From a virus (lineage: Duplodnaviria; Caudoviricetes), in the IMG/VR virus record IMGVR_UViG_3300025012_000029, positions 1-64,000 of that record: DNA of 64,000 nucleotides; one strand, written 5' to 3'. Shown one piece after another: positions 17,900 through 23,974 of this stretch. The translations under genes and the position numbers were made by a program. Within the stretch, counting starts at the first letter, position 1; every line of letters begins with the position of its first letter. The notes under the pieces were generated by a model. It worked only from the letters and a program-made list of their open reading frames with translations. It was not told where the DNA came from and did no database searches.

Positions 17900-18895
17900 T
17901 CATCCTATTAGTTGTAGATTTTTATTTGGCCAATTTACAGAAAAACCATATTTCTCATCGAATTCAAGACGAGAAACGTACGGCCTGTTAAATAAAACAG
18001 TATCATTTTCTCTCGGACTCCAACATTTAATTTTAATATCTTTTGATGAAGCTCCATCGGTTACAAATAATTCCCAGTACATTCGATTTGTTTTAGTCAT
18101 TTTTTTGTCAATTCGCCTAGGAACAAACCAAACCAATGGACGTTCTGGATTAAATTCAGAAATAGGAGGAATGTTCTTGGCTTCTAATTTAGTCATCACC
18201 TTCTCATCGATAAATAATGAGATTGGAAACATGCTGGTAAGTTCAGCCATAATTAAAACTTTTTCTTCGTCTGTGAAATCTGGTTCATTCTTATATTGTT
18301 CTATCTTCGCATACATTTCTAGTCTGGATTTAGGTCTGTCAAAGACAGTGCTCATCCAAAAATGGCGAAGATGATTGAAGTTGTTGTTCATTAATTTGTT
18401 ACAGGCTCCACTACGAATCAGAACGTCCAAACATTTTTTGTTCAATTTTTGATATTTGACTTTAGGATTGAATAACAAATCTTCAACTGTTTTGAAAGGA
18501 CGATTTTCAATTATCTGTTCTGTTGCCTTAGAACCAAAACCCTTAATTGATGTCAATGGCTGGATGAGCGTTTTACCAGTTTTGGCCGGAAGCCATTCTG
18601 TTCCAGAAGTATTTACATCTACATCGGCAATCTTATATCCTATATTCTTAACCATACTCATAGCAGCGGCTCTTGTTTTTTCTGGTTCTTCGTTGAGATA
18701 AGAACATAACCACTCAGAGGGATGATAAGTTAAAAGATGGGCACATTGGAAAGAAATGATGCTGTAAGAGATAGCATGACTATTCGAAACAGAAATGTCG
18801 TTGGCAAAAAACGAATGTTCTTCGTGTTCTACTTCAATGTCATAAGTCTCATCTTCTCCAACAGGTATTACTTCAATAATGTCTTCTTCTCGCAT
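17900..18895 (-). CDS. dnaE: DNA polymerase III alpha, fragment 3 (split-intein C half plus HhH/OB region)
   Basis: 38-aa IntC ending ...FFANDISVSN, then extein SHAISYS and HhH LTSIKGFG. Confidence 0.92.
   Translation of the reverse strand: MREEDIIEVIPVGEDETYDIEVEHEEHSFFANDISVSNSHAISYSIISFQCAHLLTYHPSEWLCSYLNEEPEKTRAAAMSMVKNIGYKIADVDVNTSGTEWLPAKTGKTLIQPLTSIKGFGSKATEQIIENRPFKTVEDLLFNPKVKYQKLNKKCLDVLIRSGACNKLMNNNFNHLRHFWMSTVFDRPKSRLEMYAKIEQYKNEPDFTDEEKVLIMAELTSMFPISLFIDEKVMTKLEAKNIPPISEFNPERPLVWFVPRRIDKKMTKTNRMYWELFVTDGASSKDIKIKCWSPRENDTVLFNRPYVSRLEFDEKYGFSVNWPNKNLQLIG
18782..18895 (-). mobile_element. Split intein C half (DnaE junction 2)
   Basis: TYDIEV...SFFAN..VSN|S: blocks F and G, penultimate Ser, terminal Asn, +1 Ser. 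Confidence 0.9.
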
Positions 18896-19860
18896 AAATG
18901 TTCTTTTACTTTCTCAATGACTTTCTCAATGTCTCTTTCTATTTCAGAAACCCAAATACGTAAATAACTCCAACCATTTTTCAATAAAAATACATTTTTA
19001 TTTTTATCATTTACAGCATTCCTTTTCTGGCAGGGGAACTTTAGAGAAAAACCTTCCTCTTTGTTAGAATGCCAGAAATCTCCATCAACCTCAACAGCAA
19101 TCTTCCATTCTGGAAAGGTAATGTCTATTGTATAAAAACCAAATAAAAACTGACTAACTATTTCTTCTTCTGGAAAATGTTGTTGTAATAAAGAAAACAA
19201 CAATAGTTCTGGTTTAGAAGTTTTACATCTATTATTTGCTATGTGTTCGGCAGTTTTTCTACGCAACAAGTTTTTTGTTTCTTCTGTGTGGTTGTGTCCT
19301 TTGTGCGGTTTTCCTGTTTTACACCACTGTGAGTTTATTTCTTTTATTTCTTTTGCCTTTTCTTCTCCATAAAGTTCAACAAGAGTTTTTCCACGACATC
19401 GCAAAGCATTTTTTTCCCATGCTCCACTTTTTTCAACATTATCTAACCACTTCTTTTTCTTCTCTGGATCATTTAGAACTTTATGAATGGGGTTATTTTT
19501 TCCTATTCTTCCGTCTGCTATTCGTTTCATAGACTCGCTAGTATTTTTTGTAAGTCCCTTGTTCCAAATGGCAGGGAAACATTTATTTGAACAAAACTTT
19601 TTATCACACCTAGTTTTTACTTTTATTCCAACTATTTCAAATAGGATGGCGTTTATCAGTCTCCTAGAATCTATTTTCATCTCCTTACCACAAGTAACAC
19701 AATTAGTATTCAAGTTATTTATAAATACTTTTTTTCTATTTTCCACTTCATCAATAAGTTCTTGATGTTTGGCATAGTCATAAACATGTCTTTTGAAAAC
19801 AGACGCAGAATATTCATTACTACAAATAGGACACAAAACTTTTGTTCTACATTTGGGCAT
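18868..19860 (-). CDS. Free-standing Vsr/DUF559-like homing endonuclease with a NUMOD3-like motif
   Basis: HKGHNHTEETK, TSKPE, YTIDITF...AVEVDGDFWH. Lies between the split-intein halves. Confidence 0.82.
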   Translation of the reverse strand: MPKCRTKVLCPICSNEYSASVFKRHVYDYAKHQELIDEVENRKKVFINNLNTNCVTCGKEMKIDSRRLINAILFEIVGIKVKTRCDKKFCSNKCFPAIWNKGLTKNTSESMKRIADGRIGKNNPIHKVLNDPEKKKKWLDNVEKSGAWEKNALRCRGKTLVELYGEEKAKEIKEINSQWCKTGKPHKGHNHTEETKNLLRRKTAEHIANNRCKTSKPELLLFSLLQQHFPEEEIVSQFLFGFYTIDITFPEWKIAVEVDGDFWHSNKEEGFSLKFPCQKRNAVNDKNKNVFLLKNGWSYLRIWVSEIERDIEKVIEKVKEHLCEKKTLLK

Positions 19861-19892
19861 ACAATAAATAGTTCTGTGTGATAGAATAAAAC

Positions 19893-20159
19893 CTAGTTTT
19901 TTACCACAACTTTCAACTTTCTGCTTATTATCTCTTCCAAAGTTTTCATTCCTTCACAAGTTTGTAGTTTGTGATCAAGCGTGCAAGTCAAGGTTTTCCC
20001 AGAAGCAGTTTTTATTTTGTAAAGTTTTTTCTTGCCATTTTGGTAGACGCTCTTTATTTTCACAAAACCATTTACACTATTGACTTCTTCTCCAATTTTT
20101 ACATCTTTTATTTCTTTTTTACCCTCTCTGGTTTCTACTAAACTGCTTCCGTGAATACA
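19893..20159 (-). mobile_element. Split intein N half (DnaE junction 2)
   Basis: 88 aa starting at Cys1 (CIHGSSLVET), with block B TCTLDH. Confidence 0.92.
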
Positions 20160-21440
20160 CTTGTTAAACGCGTAGCCGTTAAATGCCACCATATCTTGCC
20201 ACCATTTTTCGGCGTCATCCTTTGTCATCCCTTTTTCTGCACATCCATCAATAAATTTATTATGCAATCTATTTTTTACTTCTGCTTCTTTACCAGTTCC
20301 TTTTTTTGTCAACACTTTTCTCAACAAATTGGCATCATTTAGAGAAATATCTTTTCCAAGACTGTGCACCAAAGATGCTAACTGTTCTTGGAAAATAAGC
20401 AATCCGTAAGTTTTCTTTAAACATTTTTCCAAAATATCATTTTCAAACACTATTTTTTCAGGAAATTCCTTAAGAGAAAGATATCTTTTATCGACTTGCG
20501 CGCTCAAACAACCAGGTCTCCACACACTGGTTAAAACAGACAAATCGATCAAGCTCCTAGGTTTTGCCTGCTTTGTAAAATGCTGCATGCCTTTTGATGC
20601 GTCAAATTGAAAAATTCCTGCCCATTTTCCCTTATGAAAGACATTTTCATATACTTTTTGATCGTCAAAATCGATAACATTCGGGTGAAGCTTTGTATTA
20701 TAGAATTCTTTGATGTCAACGAAAGTAGGATTATCTTTTCCTTCTTTTTTCAAAATGAGTTTGATACAGTTTTCAAACATCCTTAAGGTTCCGAGTCCTA
20801 AAATATCAAATTTAATAAAACCCATTGGCTCTAAGTGTCTTACGTTTTGTCCTTCCGACCAAGGAGACTGTCTCACTCCTCCACTATAAATAAGAGGCAT
20901 ATGAGAAGGAAGATCTTCGCCTACAAGCAAACCTCCAGCATGTCTGCCACATGATCTAACTTGTCTGAAAAGATTCGCAACATGCTCTTCTATTTGTGGG
21001 TATTTTCCTAGAAATTTCCTAAATGACTCACTATATTTTAACACTTGCTCAAATGTTGGAGAAGTTGGAAGTACGCCAGATTTAATCCCCAACTCTTTTT
21101 TAATTTCTGGAACTGATTCCAAAAACATTATTGTTGTAATATCGTTAACTTCCTTGTATGGAATACCATAAAACTTTGAAATATCTTTAATGAGAGATTT
21201 CAATTGTAATGTATTCCAATTGGAAATGGAAACAACATTATCTTCTCCCCACATTTCAACAATGGTTCTCTTTACTTCATCGTTGTTGCCAACGTCAAAG
21301 TCAATATCTGGCATATCAGCAGATTTATCATTTCTAACATAGAAAGAAATGTTTTTATTTCTTACGATAGTTTGGGTTTGCGTAGGGATTGTTTGAATGA
21401 CAAACTTTCCTTCAATAGTTTCAACTTTTTTTATTAGCAT
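19893..21440 (-). CDS. dnaE: DNA polymerase III alpha, fragment 2 (palm/fingers) flanked by a degenerate IntC and a canonical IntN
   Basis: MPDIDFD, GRHAGG, KFDILGL, GIFQF, YGLLIFQEQ, YAFNK|CIHGSS. Confidence 0.94.
   Translation of the reverse strand: MLIKKVETIEGKFVIQTIPTQTQTIVRNKNISFYVRNDKSADMPDIDFDVGNNDEVKRTIVEMWGEDNVVSISNWNTLQLKSLIKDISKFYGIPYKEVNDITTIMFLESVPEIKKELGIKSGVLPTSPTFEQVLKYSESFRKFLGKYPQIEEHVANLFRQVRSCGRHAGGLLVGEDLPSHMPLIYSGGVRQSPWSEGQNVRHLEPMGFIKFDILGLGTLRMFENCIKLILKKEGKDNPTFVDIKEFYNTKLHPNVIDFDDQKVYENVFHKGKWAGIFQFDASKGMQHFTKQAKPRSLIDLSVLTSVWRPGCLSAQVDKRYLSLKEFPEKIVFENDILEKCLKKTYGLLIFQEQLASLVHSLGKDISLNDANLLRKVLTKKGTGKEAEVKNRLHNKFIDGCAEKGMTKDDAEKWWQDMVAFNGYAFNKCIHGSSLVETREGKKEIKDVKIGEEVNSVNGFVKIKSVYQNGKKKLYKIKTASGKTLTCTLDHKLQTCEGMKTLEEIISRKLKVVVKN
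21330..21440 (-). mobile_element. Degenerate IntC-like segment (DnaE junction 1)
   Basis: 37 aa ending ...TIPT...IVRNKN..FYVRN, followed by Asp rather than Cys/Ser/Thr. Confidence 0.6.
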
Positions 21441-22368
21441 TCTCTTCTCTTATTTTTGTTGTTCTATTTTTTACAGATGAAAATGTCCTGTAAGGAAAAA
21501 GCGTCTCTTGTATTTGTCTTACGGACATTTTACCATAATAAGTTCTCAATAGCAAGTCTTCTTCTTTTTCCCATTTTACTTCAAAATGCTTTTTCAGTCC
21601 TAATAAGTGTATTCTTTTTTCTATTCCTTCGTAAGTTCTGTAAGGTAAAAAAGTTTCCATTATTTTTCTACAAGACATTTTACTATGATTTTGTTTTAGA
21701 ATGTCTAGTTCTTCTGGAGTCCATTCCAAATAAGTTCCATAATCTTGTCTTATGGTTTTTACTTTATCCCATTTTCTATTCAGTTTTGGAACTTCTATTT
21801 TATTCAAGTGTTCTAATAACAAAAATGCTTTTCTTTTATTACAATAAAAAGTATAAACTGATTTTGTTTTTCTTAGATGTCCTATTTTTTCATTTAGTAT
21901 TTCTTCAAACCTTTTTATTATCCACTCAAGAAAAACTTTTGTTCCAACAATAGACAAATCAATGGAGTTTGTTTTTTTGTTAGAATAAAGACATCCATCA
22001 CCATCTATGTATCCCACAATAAAGGCATCAATAAAATCTCTATTTGTTATTGGCGGGAAAGCACAAAGAAATGTTTTGTTCGGAATAATGTTGTACTTCT
22101 GTTCAAGATCAAAACATACTTCTTTTGAAGAAAATGAAACAGACGAATAAAGGTACCCATCTTTATTCTCAAATATCCTAACAGGACAAGATAGTTCCAC
22201 AAACTTGGCAAATGATTCTAAGTGAGAATGGTCTTTTCGAGATAGACTCATAGAGAAACCACCCTTTCCAGAAACAGACCCATCAGCAGTAATAAAACCA
22301 GCCCAATAACAAGATACAATGTCAACTTCCGAAAAACAGTTTTCGTTCACAAAATACTTTTTTACCAT
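21421..22368 (-). CDS. Free-standing LAGLIDADG homing endonuclease with C-terminal Myb/SANT-like repeats
   Basis: YWAGFITADG and FIVGYIDGDG motifs, plus two W..EE..LL...RT...I..R repeats. Confidence 0.88.
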   Translation of the reverse strand: MVKKYFVNENCFSEVDIVSCYWAGFITADGSVSGKGGFSMSLSRKDHSHLESFAKFVELSCPVRIFENKDGYLYSSVSFSSKEVCFDLEQKYNIIPNKTFLCAFPPITNRDFIDAFIVGYIDGDGCLYSNKKTNSIDLSIVGTKVFLEWIIKRFEEILNEKIGHLRKTKSVYTFYCNKRKAFLLLEHLNKIEVPKLNRKWDKVKTIRQDYGTYLEWTPEELDILKQNHSKMSCRKIMETFLPYRTYEGIEKRIHLLGLKKHFEVKWEKEEDLLLRTYYGKMSVRQIQETLFPYRTFSSVKNRTTKIREENANKKS

Positions 22369-22375
22369 AACATAA

Positions 22376-23974
22376 CTAGTCTTTGTCTGGAGAAACTATT
22401 TCATCGTTTTCTAAAACGTTTGACGCTTTTTCCCACTGTTTTGTTCCATTTCTGCGTATTTTACATTGCGTATTGGGAGTTAGTAAAATCACTTTGCCAT
22501 CAGTGGTTTCTATTTTTATCATTTTACTTATTTTCGAAAAACTATTTGATTCTCCTAACGAATATCCTACATCATCTTCGGCATCGGAACGAAGGAATCT
22601 CTCAAACATCAAACCCCATTTTATTGGATTGACTTGGGTGATTCCAAGAACATAACTGACAAGGGAACCGGCGCCCGAACCTCTCCCACAGCCGGTAATC
22701 TGTAATGAATTTGCTTTATCAGCGATGGACTTCATTGTCAAAAAGTATCTGCTGAATCCTCTTCCTTGAATGACTTTGAGTTCTGTTTGAAGTTTCTTCT
22801 CGTATTCAGGTCTCTCTGTTGGGGACAAAGATAGTTTTTTTAGTCCCTCTTCTGCCATTTGTGTTAGAGCACTGTCATCAGTCATTCCATCAGGAACAAC
22901 AAAAGAAGGAAGACGAATAGTATTATCAGGCATAAAATCTTCAATCATGTTAAAAGCGATATGGTGTGCATTTGTAATAGATTTTAGGATCAAGTCAGAG
23001 TCATATTTTATACCATTCATAGAAGAATATTTTTCATATGCCTCCATCATTTGATCGCCATTCTTGGGATAAAGTTCATATCCAACTTCATCGATCGAAT
23101 CGGGCAAACTCTTTTGTTCTTTTTTGTTGAATCCTGGACGGAGGTTCTTATATAAGATTCTGTCTTTCCAAAGTTCAGGACGCGGATAATGACTATCTGC
23201 TGTTGATATTAATGGTAAATCATATTCTTTGGATAGTTGAATGATGTATTGATTGATATCGTGTTGTGCTGGAATATTATTCCATTGTAGTTCTCCAAAC
23301 CATCTGTCATTAAAGATCTTTTGCATTCGTTCTGTGGTATTGCGCATCGCATTAAGAATGATATCAGAGCCTTTTTCTAGATTTTCCCAATAATCTTGGG
23401 CATAAACTCCACCAAGGCAAGCACTGCTAGCAATTACTCCTTCATTATGTTTCTGTAAAAGTTCGTAATCAATTCGTGGAAACTTATAGAAACATGAAGG
23501 TTTAAAACTTTCAGAAATAAGACTGAAAATATTATTTAGCCCTATTTGGTTTTGGGCAAGAAGAATCAAATGTGCGCGAGCATTAAGAGGATTTTTCTTT
23601 TTCTTCGATGCTTCTTCGTCTTCAACAACTGTACCACCTTGTTCATCTTCTTCTTTTACTTTATCTTTGTTTTGTTTTTCTAGAGCTTTTGCTGATTTAA
23701 GCTCGCGCCAGTCTGCAAGAGATGGAATGAAGTATGCTTCAACTCCATATATAGGCTTAAAATTCTTGCCATCTGCTTTTAGTTTCTTAGAGTACAGGAT
23801 CTGATAAGCCGTGCCGTTCATATTCCCATGATCACTTAATGCCAGAGAATTCATTCCGTTATCTATTGCATAATCAATTGATTCGTTTGGATATCCAATA
23901 GCATCGAATGGACTTCCACATGTGGAATGAGCGTGAAGTCCGACAAAAGGAATTTTACTTTCTTTTTTTGACAT
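22376..23974 (-). CDS. dnaE: DNA polymerase III alpha, fragment 1 (PHP domain to FERFL) with a degenerate IntN-like tail
   Basis: LHAHS, SDHG, GVEAY, HLILLA, TADSHY, GRGSGAGSLV.Y.LGIT, FERFL. Confidence 0.94.
   Translation of the reverse strand: MSKKESKIPFVGLHAHSTCGSPFDAIGYPNESIDYAIDNGMNSLALSDHGNMNGTAYQILYSKKLKADGKNFKPIYGVEAYFIPSLADWRELKSAKALEKQNKDKVKEEDEQGGTVVEDEEASKKKKNPLNARAHLILLAQNQIGLNNIFSLISESFKPSCFYKFPRIDYELLQKHNEGVIASSACLGGVYAQDYWENLEKGSDIILNAMRNTTERMQKIFNDRWFGELQWNNIPAQHDINQYIIQLSKEYDLPLISTADSHYPRPELWKDRILYKNLRPGFNKKEQKSLPDSIDEVGYELYPKNGDQMMEAYEKYSSMNGIKYDSDLILKSITNAHHIAFNMIEDFMPDNTIRLPSFVVPDGMTDDSALTQMAEEGLKKLSLSPTERPEYEKKLQTELKVIQGRGFSRYFLTMKSIADKANSLQITGCGRGSGAGSLVSYVLGITQVNPIKWGLMFERFLRSDAEDDVGYSLGESNSFSKISKMIKIETTDGKVILLTPNTQCKIRRNGTKQWEKASNVLENDEIVSPDKD
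22379..22588 (-). mobile_element. Degenerate IntN-like segment (DnaE junction 1)
   Basis: 70 aa after FERFLR containing MIKIETTDGKVILLTPNT...WEKASNVLENDEIV. Block B-like, with His replaced by Thr and block A truncated. Confidence 0.6.

What the first reader, a model, noticed from the sequence alone, without database searches (positions are those of the whole stretch)
21330..22588. Splicing-dead split Hint pair at the DnaE active-site junction: a possible non-covalent clasp
Seen: fragment 1 ends FERFLR plus 70 aa, and fragment 2 starts with 37 aa before DKSADMPDIDFD. Both tails look intein-derived: MIKI...LLTPNT...WEKA resembles block B (TPNH type), and GKFVIQTIPT...IVRNKN..VRN resembles the GKVYCVTVP...VVRRNG...N class of IntC. 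However, block A is mostly missing, the block B His is Thr, the penultimate residue is Arg, and the +1 residue is Asp. Removing both tails gives FERFL-RDKSADM-PDID, the same 7-residue spacing as E. coli DnaE FERFL-NPERVSM-PDFD. Established: standard splicing needs a +1 Cys/Ser/Thr, and a homing endonuclease can split an enzyme into two non-spliced subunits (phage Aeh1 NrdA/mobE). Inference: a former split intein may have been domesticated into a heterodimerisation module holding the PHP and palm halves together next to the catalytic Asp motif, or it uses non-standard chemistry.
Basis: partly seen in the sequence, partly recalled or inferred. Interest (0 to 1): 0.9.

Follow-up and report, generated by a model that had tools for sequence, protein, structure and literature searches.

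The report
Two-piece DnaE with dead half-intein tails
A groundwater phage encodes its replicative DNA polymerase in pieces, and at one break the two ends carry the shrunken, catalytically dead remains of a split intein, which cannot splice and most likely only dock the halves together next to the active site.

Summary
DnaE fragment 1 ends with a 70-aa tail, a two-motif LAGLIDADG endonuclease gene follows, and fragment 2 opens with a 37-aa head before DKSADM-PDIDFD.

The tail is Hint-derived. Its family profile hits canonical inteins at block B (E 6e-10 in 1.8 billion proteins; 1.9e-5 against PDB). Its fold model matches only inteins and hedgehog, weakly.

The roughly 70-residue N-lobe with block A is absent. 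The block-B His is never His in 23 tails. The +1 residue is mostly P/R/E/D in 18 heads, and Asp here. Splicing is therefore effectively excluded for the family.

Head-to-IntC homology is only circumstantial.

Tail and head always occur together. They persist in a relative without any endonuclease gene (+1 Pro), are under purifying selection (dN/dS about 0.3), and are more alike than the surrounding polymerase, so they behave as a mobile cassette. Complex prediction gives weak support (0.55 against 0.02 for the best control).

An intron and an assembly error are both rejected.

Closest known are the Aeh1 NrdA/mobE tails and 'fractured genes'. This scan has already noted similar dead-intein DnaE splits in two other genomes.

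The docking function is inferred, not shown.

The parts
22376..23974 (-). DnaE fragment 1 (532 aa): PHP domain plus the first part of the palm, ending in FERFL, a linker copy and the tail
   Evidence: ORF. Pfam PHP and DNA_pol3_alpha positions 2-97. Aligns to E. coli Pol III alpha residues 289-395.
22562..22591 (-). First copy of the FERFL-to-PDID linker (R462-Y471, RSDAEDDVGY), retained on fragment 1
   Evidence: Matches RSDATDY / RADATDW of uninterrupted relatives. A G-[FYIL] end is conserved in 13 of 14 tails.
22526..22561 (-). Variable polar spacer (S472-S483)
   Evidence: Not conserved in the family alignments. pLDDT below 50 in the tail model.
22379..22525 (-). Hint block-B-like domain of the tail (K484-D532), equivalent to the second half of an IntN. 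It has TPNT in place of TxxH.
   Evidence: Profile against PDB hits inteins at chain residues about 70-120. Profile against 1.84 billion representatives gives 107 canonical inteins among the 150 best hits. AF2 model pLDDT 76 with five strands. Foldseek and VIA top rows are inteins or hedgehog.
21421..22368 (-). Free-standing two-motif LAGLIDADG homing endonuclease gene (315 aa) with two C-terminal Myb/SANT-like repeats. Its 3' end overlaps the start of fragment 2 by 20 nt.
   Evidence: Pfam LAGLIDADG_3 E 3.8e-7, with weak Myb hits. Homologous 317-321 aa genes sit at the same place in L001, L004 and L008.
21330..21440 (-). Head of fragment 2 (M1-N37): IntC-sized beta module ending in an invariant Asn
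   Evidence: 18-member alignment with N37 invariant. AF2 head-only model has pLDDT 89 and a terminal hairpin. The first strand matches the strand before block F of canonical inteins in 10 of 20 best local hits, against a 4.3% background. There is no significant sequence or fold match to IntC.
21312..21329 (-). Second linker copy (D38-M43, DKSADM), attached to the catalytic strand. D38 is the '+1' residue.
   Evidence: Aligns with PERVSM of E. coli and Taq DnaE. The +1 residue varies across the family as P/R/E/D/G/K/S/T.
21294..21311 (-). PDIDFD, the motif with two catalytic Asp residues of the DnaE palm
   Evidence: Invariant P44, D45, D47, D49. Aligns to PDFDVD of E. coli.
19893..21440 (-). 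DnaE fragment 2 (515 aa): head, rest of palm, thumb and fingers, plus a canonical IntN at its C-terminus (19896-20159)
   Evidence: Pfam DNA_pol3_alpha 96-260, finger domain, Intein_splicing and Hint. CIHGSS...TLDH is visible.
18868..19860 (-). Vsr/DUF559-like free-standing endonuclease gene in the second, canonical fracture
   Evidence: Pfam DUF559, MTES_1575 and Vsr. This is the arrangement described by Dassa et al. 2009.
17900..18895 (-). DnaE fragment 3 (331 aa), which starts with a canonical IntC (18782-18895, ...SVSN|SHAISY)
   Evidence: HHH_6. Serves as an internal control for an intact split intein in the same gene.

Best explanation
The phage DnaE is broken just before its catalytic PDIDFD strand by a mobile cassette made of three parts: a C-terminal tail on fragment 1, a LAGLIDADG homing endonuclease gene, and an N-terminal head on fragment 2.

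The tail is the second half of a split-intein N-piece (the block-B lobe). The head occupies the place, and has the size, of an intein C-piece. The first lobe of the Hint fold, with block A and the Cys/Ser1 nucleophile, is missing. The block-B His and the +1 nucleophile are also missing.

No peptide bond can therefore be made, and the polymerase works as separate polypeptides. The surviving half-Hint pieces are kept by selection. They most likely pair with each other as a beta-rich heterodimerisation module that holds the two palm halves in register at the active site.

Shown: the anatomy, the Hint ancestry of the tail, the loss of catalytic residues across the family, the co-inheritance of tail and head, purifying selection, and cassette-like transfer.

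Inferred: the IntC ancestry of the head, tail-head binding, and a need for that binding for polymerase activity.
For: Tail is Hint-derived:
- The family profile hits the fused Aes123 PolB1 intein (9hth, E 1.9e-5) and then KlbA, RadA, PolC, VMA, CDC21, TFIIB and hedgehog, always at block B.
- Against 1.84 billion representatives there are 205 hits at E <= 1e-3. Of the 150 best, 107 carry the canonical block-B His and 18 are DnaE tails without it.
- 5 of 14 tails hit Pfam Intein_splicing.
- The tail model (pLDDT 76) superposes on inteins at 1.4-1.6 A over about 40 residues, and the top 24 VIA rows are all Hint proteins.

Splicing is lost:
- Only about 10 residues separate the native linker from the block-B match, against about 70 in real inteins.
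- There is no conserved Cys/Ser/Thr at the tail start.
- The His position is never His in 23 tails.
- The +1 residue is D,P,R,S,R,R,P,E,R,P,G,P,E,D,R,K,R,T.

The pieces are maintained and function-linked:
- Tail and head co-occur in all 6 loci examined, and neither is present in uninterrupted relatives.
- L007 keeps both, with only an 82-nt gap carrying a promoter-like TATAAATA and an RBS, no endonuclease gene, and +1 Pro.
- Other relatives have a different gene in the gap.
- L001 against L007: tail dN 0.17 / dS 0.66 and head dN 0.20 / dS 0.60, while the core dS is saturated. Nucleotide identity peaks at 0.83-0.89 in tail and head against 0.5-0.7 in the flanks.

Binding:
- ESMFold2 complex ipSAE 0.55 against 0.02 for the best of 3 controls. 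Runs agree in at least 80% of contacts and partner pLDDT is at least 69. The tool's verdict is 'weak support'; the mark was reached by 58 of 80 solved complexes and 2 of 110 mismatched pairs.

Precedent:
- The Aeh1 NrdA-a/NrdA-b tails created by mobE are unprocessed and essential for activity (PMC3045599).
Against: - Head-to-IntC homology is not demonstrable. The head profile finds no intein in PDB, hhalign against canonical IntC gives 4% probability, and the head-only fold finds nothing.
- The complex score falls in the band the tool calls weak, and could partly reflect memory of split-intein complexes.
- Foldseek E-values for the tail are all above 0.1 and VIA Z values are only 3-5.6.
- Tail and head charges are not complementary here (+1 and +4), unlike classic split inteins.
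- In the Aeh1 precedent the tails were not needed for heterodimer formation, only for higher assembly and activity. 'Docking' may therefore be the wrong description of what the tails do.
- The invariant Asn can be read as the native Asn393 of DnaE rather than an intein terminal Asn.
- Some contiguous inteins among the hits also have Thr at the block-B His position, so that single substitution proves nothing on its own.
- There is no expression or protein data.
Confidence: 0.62

Rival explanations
1. Tolerated remnant. Tail and head are decayed intein leftovers that travel with the endonuclease cassette and are harmless. The two DnaE halves assemble through the large native palm interface, and the tails contribute nothing essential, or serve something other than docking, such as folding, solubility or translational coupling of the downstream gene.
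For: - The split lies inside one folded domain, so a large native interface already exists.
- Tails evolve faster than the core (mean 32% against 57% identity).
- There is no charge complementarity.
- The Aeh1 tails were not needed for heterodimerisation.
- The complex score is only 'weak support'.
Against: - dN/dS is about 0.26-0.33 on both tail and head.
- The beta pattern is conserved, with an invariant Arg and near-invariant Gly and Asp across 23 tails, and the Asn is invariant in 18 heads.
- Both pieces are retained after loss of the endonuclease gene in L007. Neutral remnants in an AT-rich phage would be expected to be truncated by stop codons.
Confidence: 0.22
2. Protein trans-splicing still happens through non-canonical chemistry. 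Candidates are Ser463 or Ser472 as nucleophile, a class-3-like route, or an unusual acceptor at Asp+1.
For: - In this window a Ser follows FERFLR, and another follows the GY of the linker.
- The terminal Asn is invariant.
- Two relatives have Ser or Thr at +1, and one (L004) also has Cys after the linker.
- Some apparently intact contiguous inteins also have Thr at the block-B His position.
Against: - The whole N-lobe of the Hint fold, which carries block A and positions the scissile bond, is absent.
- The +1 residue is Pro, Arg, Glu, Asp, Gly or Lys in 16 of 18 heads, and Asp here.
- No nucleophile is conserved at the tail start.
- There is no penultimate His and no block-F Asp/His.
- Splicing would leave a duplicated or missing linker.
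Confidence: 0.05
3. C-terminal cleavage only. The invariant Asn cyclises and cuts the head off fragment 2 after assembly, leaving DKSADM-PDIDFD with a free N-terminus.
For: Asn is invariant in 18 of 18 heads despite a variable +1 residue. Asn cyclisation needs no +1 nucleophile (established intein chemistry).
Against: - The residues that assist cyclisation (penultimate His, block-F His/Asp) are absent.
- The Asn aligns with the native Asn393 of E. coli and Asn455 of Taq DnaE, which explains its conservation without any chemistry.
- Pro at +1 in several members disfavours succinimide formation.
Confidence: 0.05
4. The interval is an intron (group I or II) carrying the LAGLIDADG ORF, and the exons are joined at the RNA level. 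Alternatively, the split is an assembly or sequencing artefact.
For: LAGLIDADG genes are common in group I introns. A U|...G| join in frame is formally possible (FERFL-NDKSADM-PDID, read).
Against: - There is no Rfam intron match at E <= 10, either here or in the endonuclease-free junction of L007.
- The L007 junction folds no better than shuffled sequence (z -0.17).
- Tail and head are open, conserved protein sequences with significant Hint homology.
- Fragment 2 has its own RBS and start codon.
- Two samples give identical contigs at 60x and 22x.
Confidence: 0.02

Closest known systems
Aeromonas phage Aeh1 NrdA-a/NrdA-b 'genes in pieces' made by the mobE endonuclease (Friedrich 2007; Crona et al. 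2010, PMC3045599)
   Same: A free-standing homing endonuclease gene splits an essential nucleotide-metabolism or replication enzyme at its active site. The two products carry extra C- and N-terminal tails that are not removed, and the enzyme works unspliced. The authors speculated that the tails might be a degenerate intein.
   Different: - The Aeh1 tails are short (about 18 aa), had no detectable homologues, and are charge-complementary.
- Here the tail is 70 aa with statistically supported Hint homology.
- It belongs to a family found in many phages, is associated with LAGLIDADG rather than HNH endonucleases, and shows no charge complementarity.
- The function of the Aeh1 tails was tested. 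Here it was not.
'Fractured genes': split intein halves flanking a free-standing homing endonuclease gene (Dassa et al. 2009, PMC2677866)
   Same: The gene order is the same: host fragment with IntN, endonuclease gene, then IntC with host fragment, on one strand in environmental phage-like DNA, and it includes DnaE. The second break of this very gene (Vsr-like endonuclease, 17900-21440) is a textbook example.
   Different: Fractured-gene inteins keep all six Hint motifs and the five catalytic residues, with IntN of 88-105 aa. The break studied here has a roughly 50-aa half-IntN, no block A, no TxxH His and no +1 nucleophile. It uses a LAGLIDADG endonuclease, a family not mentioned in that paper (0 occurrences).
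Canonical naturally split inteins (cyanobacterial DnaE, gp41-1, Aes123 PolB1)
   Same: The tail aligns in sequence and fold with their block-B region. The Aes123 PolB1 intein 9hth is the best PDB hit. The head has IntC length and position. The IntN second half plus IntC is the part that first associates in the 'capture and collapse' model (recalled knowledge; the phrase is in the literature found).
   Different: There is no splicing chemistry and half of the fold is missing. The insertion point lies in front of PDID, where no Cys/Ser/Thr is available.

Membership tests
Hint / intein superfamily (homology) | Sequence and fold similarity to the Hint domain | tested here: met
   Met for the N-tail only. 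Profile E 1.9e-5 against PDB inteins and 6e-10 to canonical inteins in 1.84 billion proteins. Pfam PF14890 in 5 of 14 tails. Fold hits are exclusively Hint proteins, with weak scores.
Hint / intein superfamily (homology) | C-terminal piece homologous to blocks F/G (IntC) | tested here: inconclusive
   No PDB profile hit, hhalign probability 4%, and no fold match. However, the first strand maps in front of block F in 10 of 20 local hits against a 4.3% background, and length, position and the terminal hairpin plus Asn all fit.
Active (splicing) intein | Block A with Cys/Ser/Thr at intein position 1, within an N-terminal Hint lobe | tested here: not met
   About 10 residues lie between the native linker and the block-B match, against about 70 in solved inteins. 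No nucleophile is conserved in 14 tails.
Active (splicing) intein | Block B TxxH histidine | tested here: not met
   The position is Thr here and never His in 23 family tails. It is His in 107 of 150 profile hits outside the family.
Active (splicing) intein | Cys/Ser/Thr at +1 of the C-extein | tested here: not met
   Asp here. Only 2 of 18 family heads have Ser or Thr, and 5 have Pro.
Active (splicing) intein | Terminal Asn (or Gln/Asp) preceded by His | tested here: inconclusive
   Asn is invariant, but the penultimate residue is Arg/Lys/Tyr/Leu, and the Asn also aligns with the native DnaE Asn393.
Active (splicing) intein | Formation of a ligated extein product | not testable with these tools
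   Needs co-expression and MS or SDS-PAGE.
Fractured gene (Dassa 2009) | Adjacent co-oriented gene halves separated by a free-standing homing endonuclease gene | tested here: met
   The same layout occurs in L001, L004 and L008.
Fractured gene (Dassa 2009) | Complete split intein with all catalytic residues | tested here: not met
   See the rows above. The second break of the same gene does meet this feature.
Endonuclease-made genes-in-pieces with assembly tails (Aeh1 NrdA type) | Unique, unprocessed tails at the break that are required for enzyme activity | not testable with these tools
   The tails are present and conserved. Processing and requirement both need biochemistry.
LAGLIDADG homing endonuclease | Two LAGLIDADG motifs with acidic catalytic residues in one chain | tested here: met
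   YWAGFITADGSV and VGYIDGDGCL. Pfam LAGLIDADG_3 E 3.8e-7 with two stretches. Cleavage activity was not tested.
Group I / II intron | Match to the intron covariance models, or a structured RNA core | tested here: not met
   No hit at E <= 10 in the window or in the endonuclease-free L007 junction. Folding z -0.17.

The most novel reading that the evidence does not exclude
The tail-endonuclease-head unit is a self-sufficient 'break-and-clasp' mobile element. It is a homing endonuclease that carries its own catalytically dead half-Hint heterodimerisation module. This lets it invade essential genes at sites with no Cys/Ser/Thr available, here directly in front of the catalytic PDID strand, and remain phenotypically neutral without any splicing.

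The same dead block-B tail on a family-B polymerase fragment (P0272 in L009) hints that the module is used beyond DnaE. This would be a third route, besides introns and inteins, by which homing elements neutralise their own insertion, and a natural source of small orthogonal protein-docking pairs.
Probability: 0.4. Interest if true: 0.8.

Novelty: new variant of a known kind. Interest (0 to 1): 0.62.

Why it matters
It would be a documented end-point of intein evolution: protein splicing decaying into plain non-covalent assembly while the element stays mobile. Crona et al. raised this idea for the Aeh1 NrdA tails, but could not support it because those tails have no detectable homologues.

It shows that a replicative polymerase can be split one residue-stretch away from its catalytic aspartates and still be maintained across many phage lineages.

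The family of about 50-aa plus 35-aa pieces could provide compact, naturally evolved heterodimerisation tags. It would also be a test bed for which half of a split intein carries the binding energy.

Tried and rejected
- **Group I/II intron.** Rfam E-value scans of the window interval and of the endonuclease-free L007 junction found nothing. RNA folding of the L007 junction is unremarkable.
- **Close relatives in curated collections.** tblastn of GenBank phages found only DnaE at about 30% identity without the cassette. A viral-contig scan found no relative.
- **Head as IntC by sequence or fold.** The PDB profile search, hhalign against 7 canonical IntC sequences, and Foldseek of the head-only model all gave nothing usable.
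- **hhalign of the tail against this gene's own canonical IntN family.** It gave only 13% probability, although it aligned the right region.
- **A contiguous (unsplit) version of the dead module to fold as one chain.** None was found among 380 collected proteins.
- **Charge complementarity of tail and head.** Not seen.
- **RNA evidence.** No RNA runs hold this DNA.
- **Complex prediction.** The tool's verdict was 'weak support' only: 0.55 against 0.02 for the best control. The mark was reached by 58 of 80 solved complexes and 2 of 110 mismatched pairs. No interface was reported.
- **Sequencing error.** Rejected.

Full report
**Anatomy**

All genes in 17900-23974 are on the minus strand. DnaE is encoded in three pieces.
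- Fragment 1 (22376-23974, 532 aa) carries the PHP domain and the first 97 positions of the Pfam DNA_pol3_alpha profile.
- Fragment 2 (19893-21440, 515 aa) resumes at profile position 96 from its residue 38. It continues through the finger domain and ends in a canonical IntN (CIHGSS...TLDH).
- Fragment 3 (17900-18895) starts with a canonical IntC (...SVSN|SHAISY).

A Vsr/DUF559-like endonuclease gene lies in the second break. This is the 'fractured gene' arrangement of Dassa et al. 2009, who described exactly such DnaE loci.

The finding concerns the first break. After FERFL-R462, fragment 1 runs on for 70 residues (22379-22588). A 315-aa two-motif LAGLIDADG gene follows (21421-22368). Fragment 2 then begins with 37 residues (21330-21440) before DKSADM-PDIDFD.

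**Reality of the sequence**

Contigs from two groundwater samples, at about 60x and 22x, match 21216-22700 with no differences, indels or joints. The identical fragment-1 protein is recorded on 8 contigs.

**What an intact gene looks like**

Relatives at 55-66% identity that are uninterrupted at this site read FERFL-(R/T)xxxxx(Y/F/W)-PDIDYD, which is seven residues between the two motifs. E. coli Pol III alpha aligns to fragment 1 up to residue 395 (FLNPE) and to fragment 2 from Asn393 (NPERVSM-PDFD).

Fragment 1 of the window keeps a recognisable copy of the relatives' linker (RSDAEDD..GY against RSDATDY). Fragment 2 has its own copy (N-DKSADM against N-PERVSM). The linker is therefore duplicated rather than divided, and the extra modules hang off the two copies.

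**A conserved family, not a one-off**

About 14 relatives among the first 120 hits end in a comparable tail. About 18 fragment-2 relatives begin with a comparable head.

- Tails share the pattern h-x-h-x-T-x-dG-x-x-h-x-h-TP-x-h-x-h-K-h-x-R-x-g...A-k-x-L-x-x-GDE-h. Across 23 tails there is an invariant Arg and near-invariant Gly and Asp.
- Heads share M-K-I-x-K-I-x-x-L...h-x-h-x-N, with the Asn invariant.

In every locus where DNA was available (the window, L001, L004, L006, L007, L008), a tail on fragment 1 is accompanied by a head on fragment 2. Uninterrupted genes have neither.

**Hint ancestry of the tail**

- A profile of the tails alone, searched against PDB sequences, returns the fused Aes123 PolB1 split intein (E 1.9e-5). 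It is followed by KlbA, RadA, PolC, VMA, CDC21, TFIIB, PI-PkoII, hedgehog and gp41-1, always over chain residues about 70-120, the block-B region.
- Against 1.84 billion representative proteins the profile finds 205 proteins at E <= 1e-3. Among the best 150, 107 have the canonical block-B His (many with a visible Cys1 upstream), 18 are DnaE tails lacking it, and 25 are other sequences lacking it.
- Five of 14 tails hit Pfam Intein_splicing individually, with a best E of 8.8e-4. The window's own tail does not.
- An AlphaFold2 model of the tail (pLDDT 76, five strands) superposes on intein structures at 1.4-1.6 A over about 40 residues. The Foldseek E-values are poor (all above 0.1). The top 24 VIA rows are all inteins or hedgehog Hint, at Z 3.2-5.6.

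I regard Hint ancestry of the tail as established, mainly by the sequence statistics.

**Ancestry of the head**

This is weaker.
- The 34-column head profile finds no intein in PDB.
- hhalign against seven canonical IntC sequences gives 4% probability.
- The head-only model (pLDDT 89, terminal hairpin) has no meaningful fold match.

The positive evidence is circumstantial.
- Length is 34-41 aa and the position is that of an IntC.
- The head ends in a hairpin with an invariant Asn.
- In a crude test, 10 of the 20 best local matches of its first strand within canonical intein-containing proteins fall directly before a block-F-like hY[DN]h motif, against 4.3% for random positions.

The invariant Asn is ambiguous, because it aligns with the native Asn393 of E. 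coli and Asn455 of Taq DnaE.

**Splicing is lost**

- In solved inteins the matched segment begins about 70 residues after Cys1. In fragment 1 only about 10 variable polar residues separate the native linker from it. The whole N-lobe with block A is therefore absent.
- No Cys/Ser/Thr is conserved at the start of the tails.
- The block-B His position is T/L/V/M/I/A/Q/R and never His.
- The +1 residue in 18 heads is D,P,R,S,R,R,P,E,R,P,G,P,E,D,R,K,R,T.
- Thr at the His position also occurs in some apparently intact contiguous inteins, so that substitution alone would not be decisive. The combination is.

**Mobility and selection**

The gap between tail and head holds different things in different loci.
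- A homologous LAGLIDADG gene in the window, L001, L004 and L008 (30-45% identity).
- An endonuclease-I-like gene in another contig.
- A 116-aa ORF in L006.
- Nothing in L007, where 82 nt with a TATAAATA motif and a purine-rich RBS separate the stop of fragment 1 from the start of fragment 2, and +1 is Pro.

Comparison of L001 with L007:

| Region | Nucleotide identity | dN | dS |
|---|---|---|---|
| Polymerase core | 60% | 0.36-0.38 | saturated |
| Tail | 78% | 0.17 | 0.66 |
| Head | 77% | 0.20 | 0.60 |

Identity peaks at 0.83-0.89 exactly over the Hint-like part and the head. Two conclusions follow.
- Tail and head share a more recent ancestor than the genes they sit in, so the cassette transfers between hosts.
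- Both are under purifying selection as proteins (dN/dS about 0.26-0.33, on only 59 and 34 codons).

They also survive loss of the endonuclease gene.

**Do they bind each other?**

Runs agreed in at least 80% of contacts and partner pLDDT was at least 69. The mark was reached by 58 of 80 solved complexes and 2 of 110 mismatched pairs, but the tool classes a pass at 0.60 or below as weak, and it may draw on memory of split-intein complexes. No interface was reported. Charges are not complementary here (tail +1, head +4).

**Interpretation**

The surviving pieces correspond to the second half of IntN plus IntC, which together form one pseudo-symmetric lobe of the Hint fold. From recalled knowledge of the 'capture and collapse' model of split-intein assembly (literature located), this is the part that first associates.

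The most economical reading is that a split intein, or an intein fractured by its endonuclease, lost its catalytic lobe and residues but kept its association lobe. That lobe now docks two polymerase fragments whose junction lies directly in front of the catalytic PDIDFD strand.

The experimental precedent is phage Aeh1 NrdA. There, tails created by the mobE insertion are unprocessed and essential for activity, and the authors speculated about a degenerate intein without being able to show homology. In that system the tails were not needed for heterodimerisation itself, which is a caution against assuming simple 'glue'.

**Rivals**

- Neutral remnant: about 0.2.
- Non-canonical splicing: about 0.05.
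- Asn-mediated cleavage of the head only: about 0.05.
- Intron or artefact: about 0.02. This is rejected and by the protein-level conservation.

**Novelty**

Neither the fractured-genes paper (no LAGLIDADG, all catalytic residues present) nor my literature searches describe a Hint-derived, non-splicing tail pair.

This scan has, however, noted the same kind of thing in two other genomes: e1-5346578, a marine phage, and e1-1964328, a phage-plasmid with an HNH endonuclease. I did not re-examine either.

I class the feature as a new variant of a known kind: endonuclease-made genes in pieces with assembly tails, here with demonstrable intein ancestry.

Noticed in passing
17900-21440 (minus strand): The second break of the same DnaE is a textbook fractured gene. 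It has a canonical IntN (19896-20159; C1, TLDH), a Vsr/DUF559-like endonuclease gene (18868-19860), and a canonical IntC (18782-18895, SVSN|S). The penultimate residue is Ser rather than His.
   Followed up: partly
L009:4001-4555 (protein P0272): A 184-aa family-B DNA polymerase fragment (Pfam DNA_pol_B E 4.8e-15) ends in the same kind of block-B tail without His (LTENRKVKVNRNG...). A GIY-YIG/NUMOD3 gene and a further PolB fragment follow. The downstream fragment has no obvious IntC-like head. The dead-tail phenomenon may not be limited to DnaE.
   Followed up: partly
Proteins P0233 and P0236 (129 aa each): In some relatives DnaE is broken even more finely. A 129-aa middle piece consists of a canonical IntC (...VHN|SAAGS), only about 37 residues of DnaE, and then the dead tail. 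One short polypeptide therefore carries a live intein half and a dead one.
   Followed up: no
L006:6500-6850: A relative with a shortened tail (47 aa after FERFM) has a 116-aa ORF of unknown family in the gap instead of a LAGLIDADG gene. Another contig (P0093) has a 304-aa endonuclease-I-like gene there. The gap occupant turns over while tail and head stay.
   Followed up: partly
21200-21262: In both groundwater samples the assembly graph branches here. Short lower-depth contigs (about 12-14x against 60x) match 21216-21262 with 1-2 differences and then continue with unlike sequence towards the PDIDFD side. This suggests a co-occurring related strain whose DnaE differs upstream of this point. 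Whether that strain lacks the cassette is unknown.
   Followed up: no
L007:3436-3517 and L001:7582-7680: The intergenic spacers next to the tails contain TATAAATA-type (T4 late-promoter-like) motifs within short inverted repeats. Dassa et al. and the Aeh1 work described similar elements upstream of gene-fracturing endonucleases.
   Followed up: no
Proteins P0245, P0256, P0261 and others: Several long proteins with contiguous, Cys1-bearing inteins have TPET or TANT in place of the block-B TxxH. This resembles the window's TPNT and may point to the intein lineage from which the dead tails descend.
   Followed up: no
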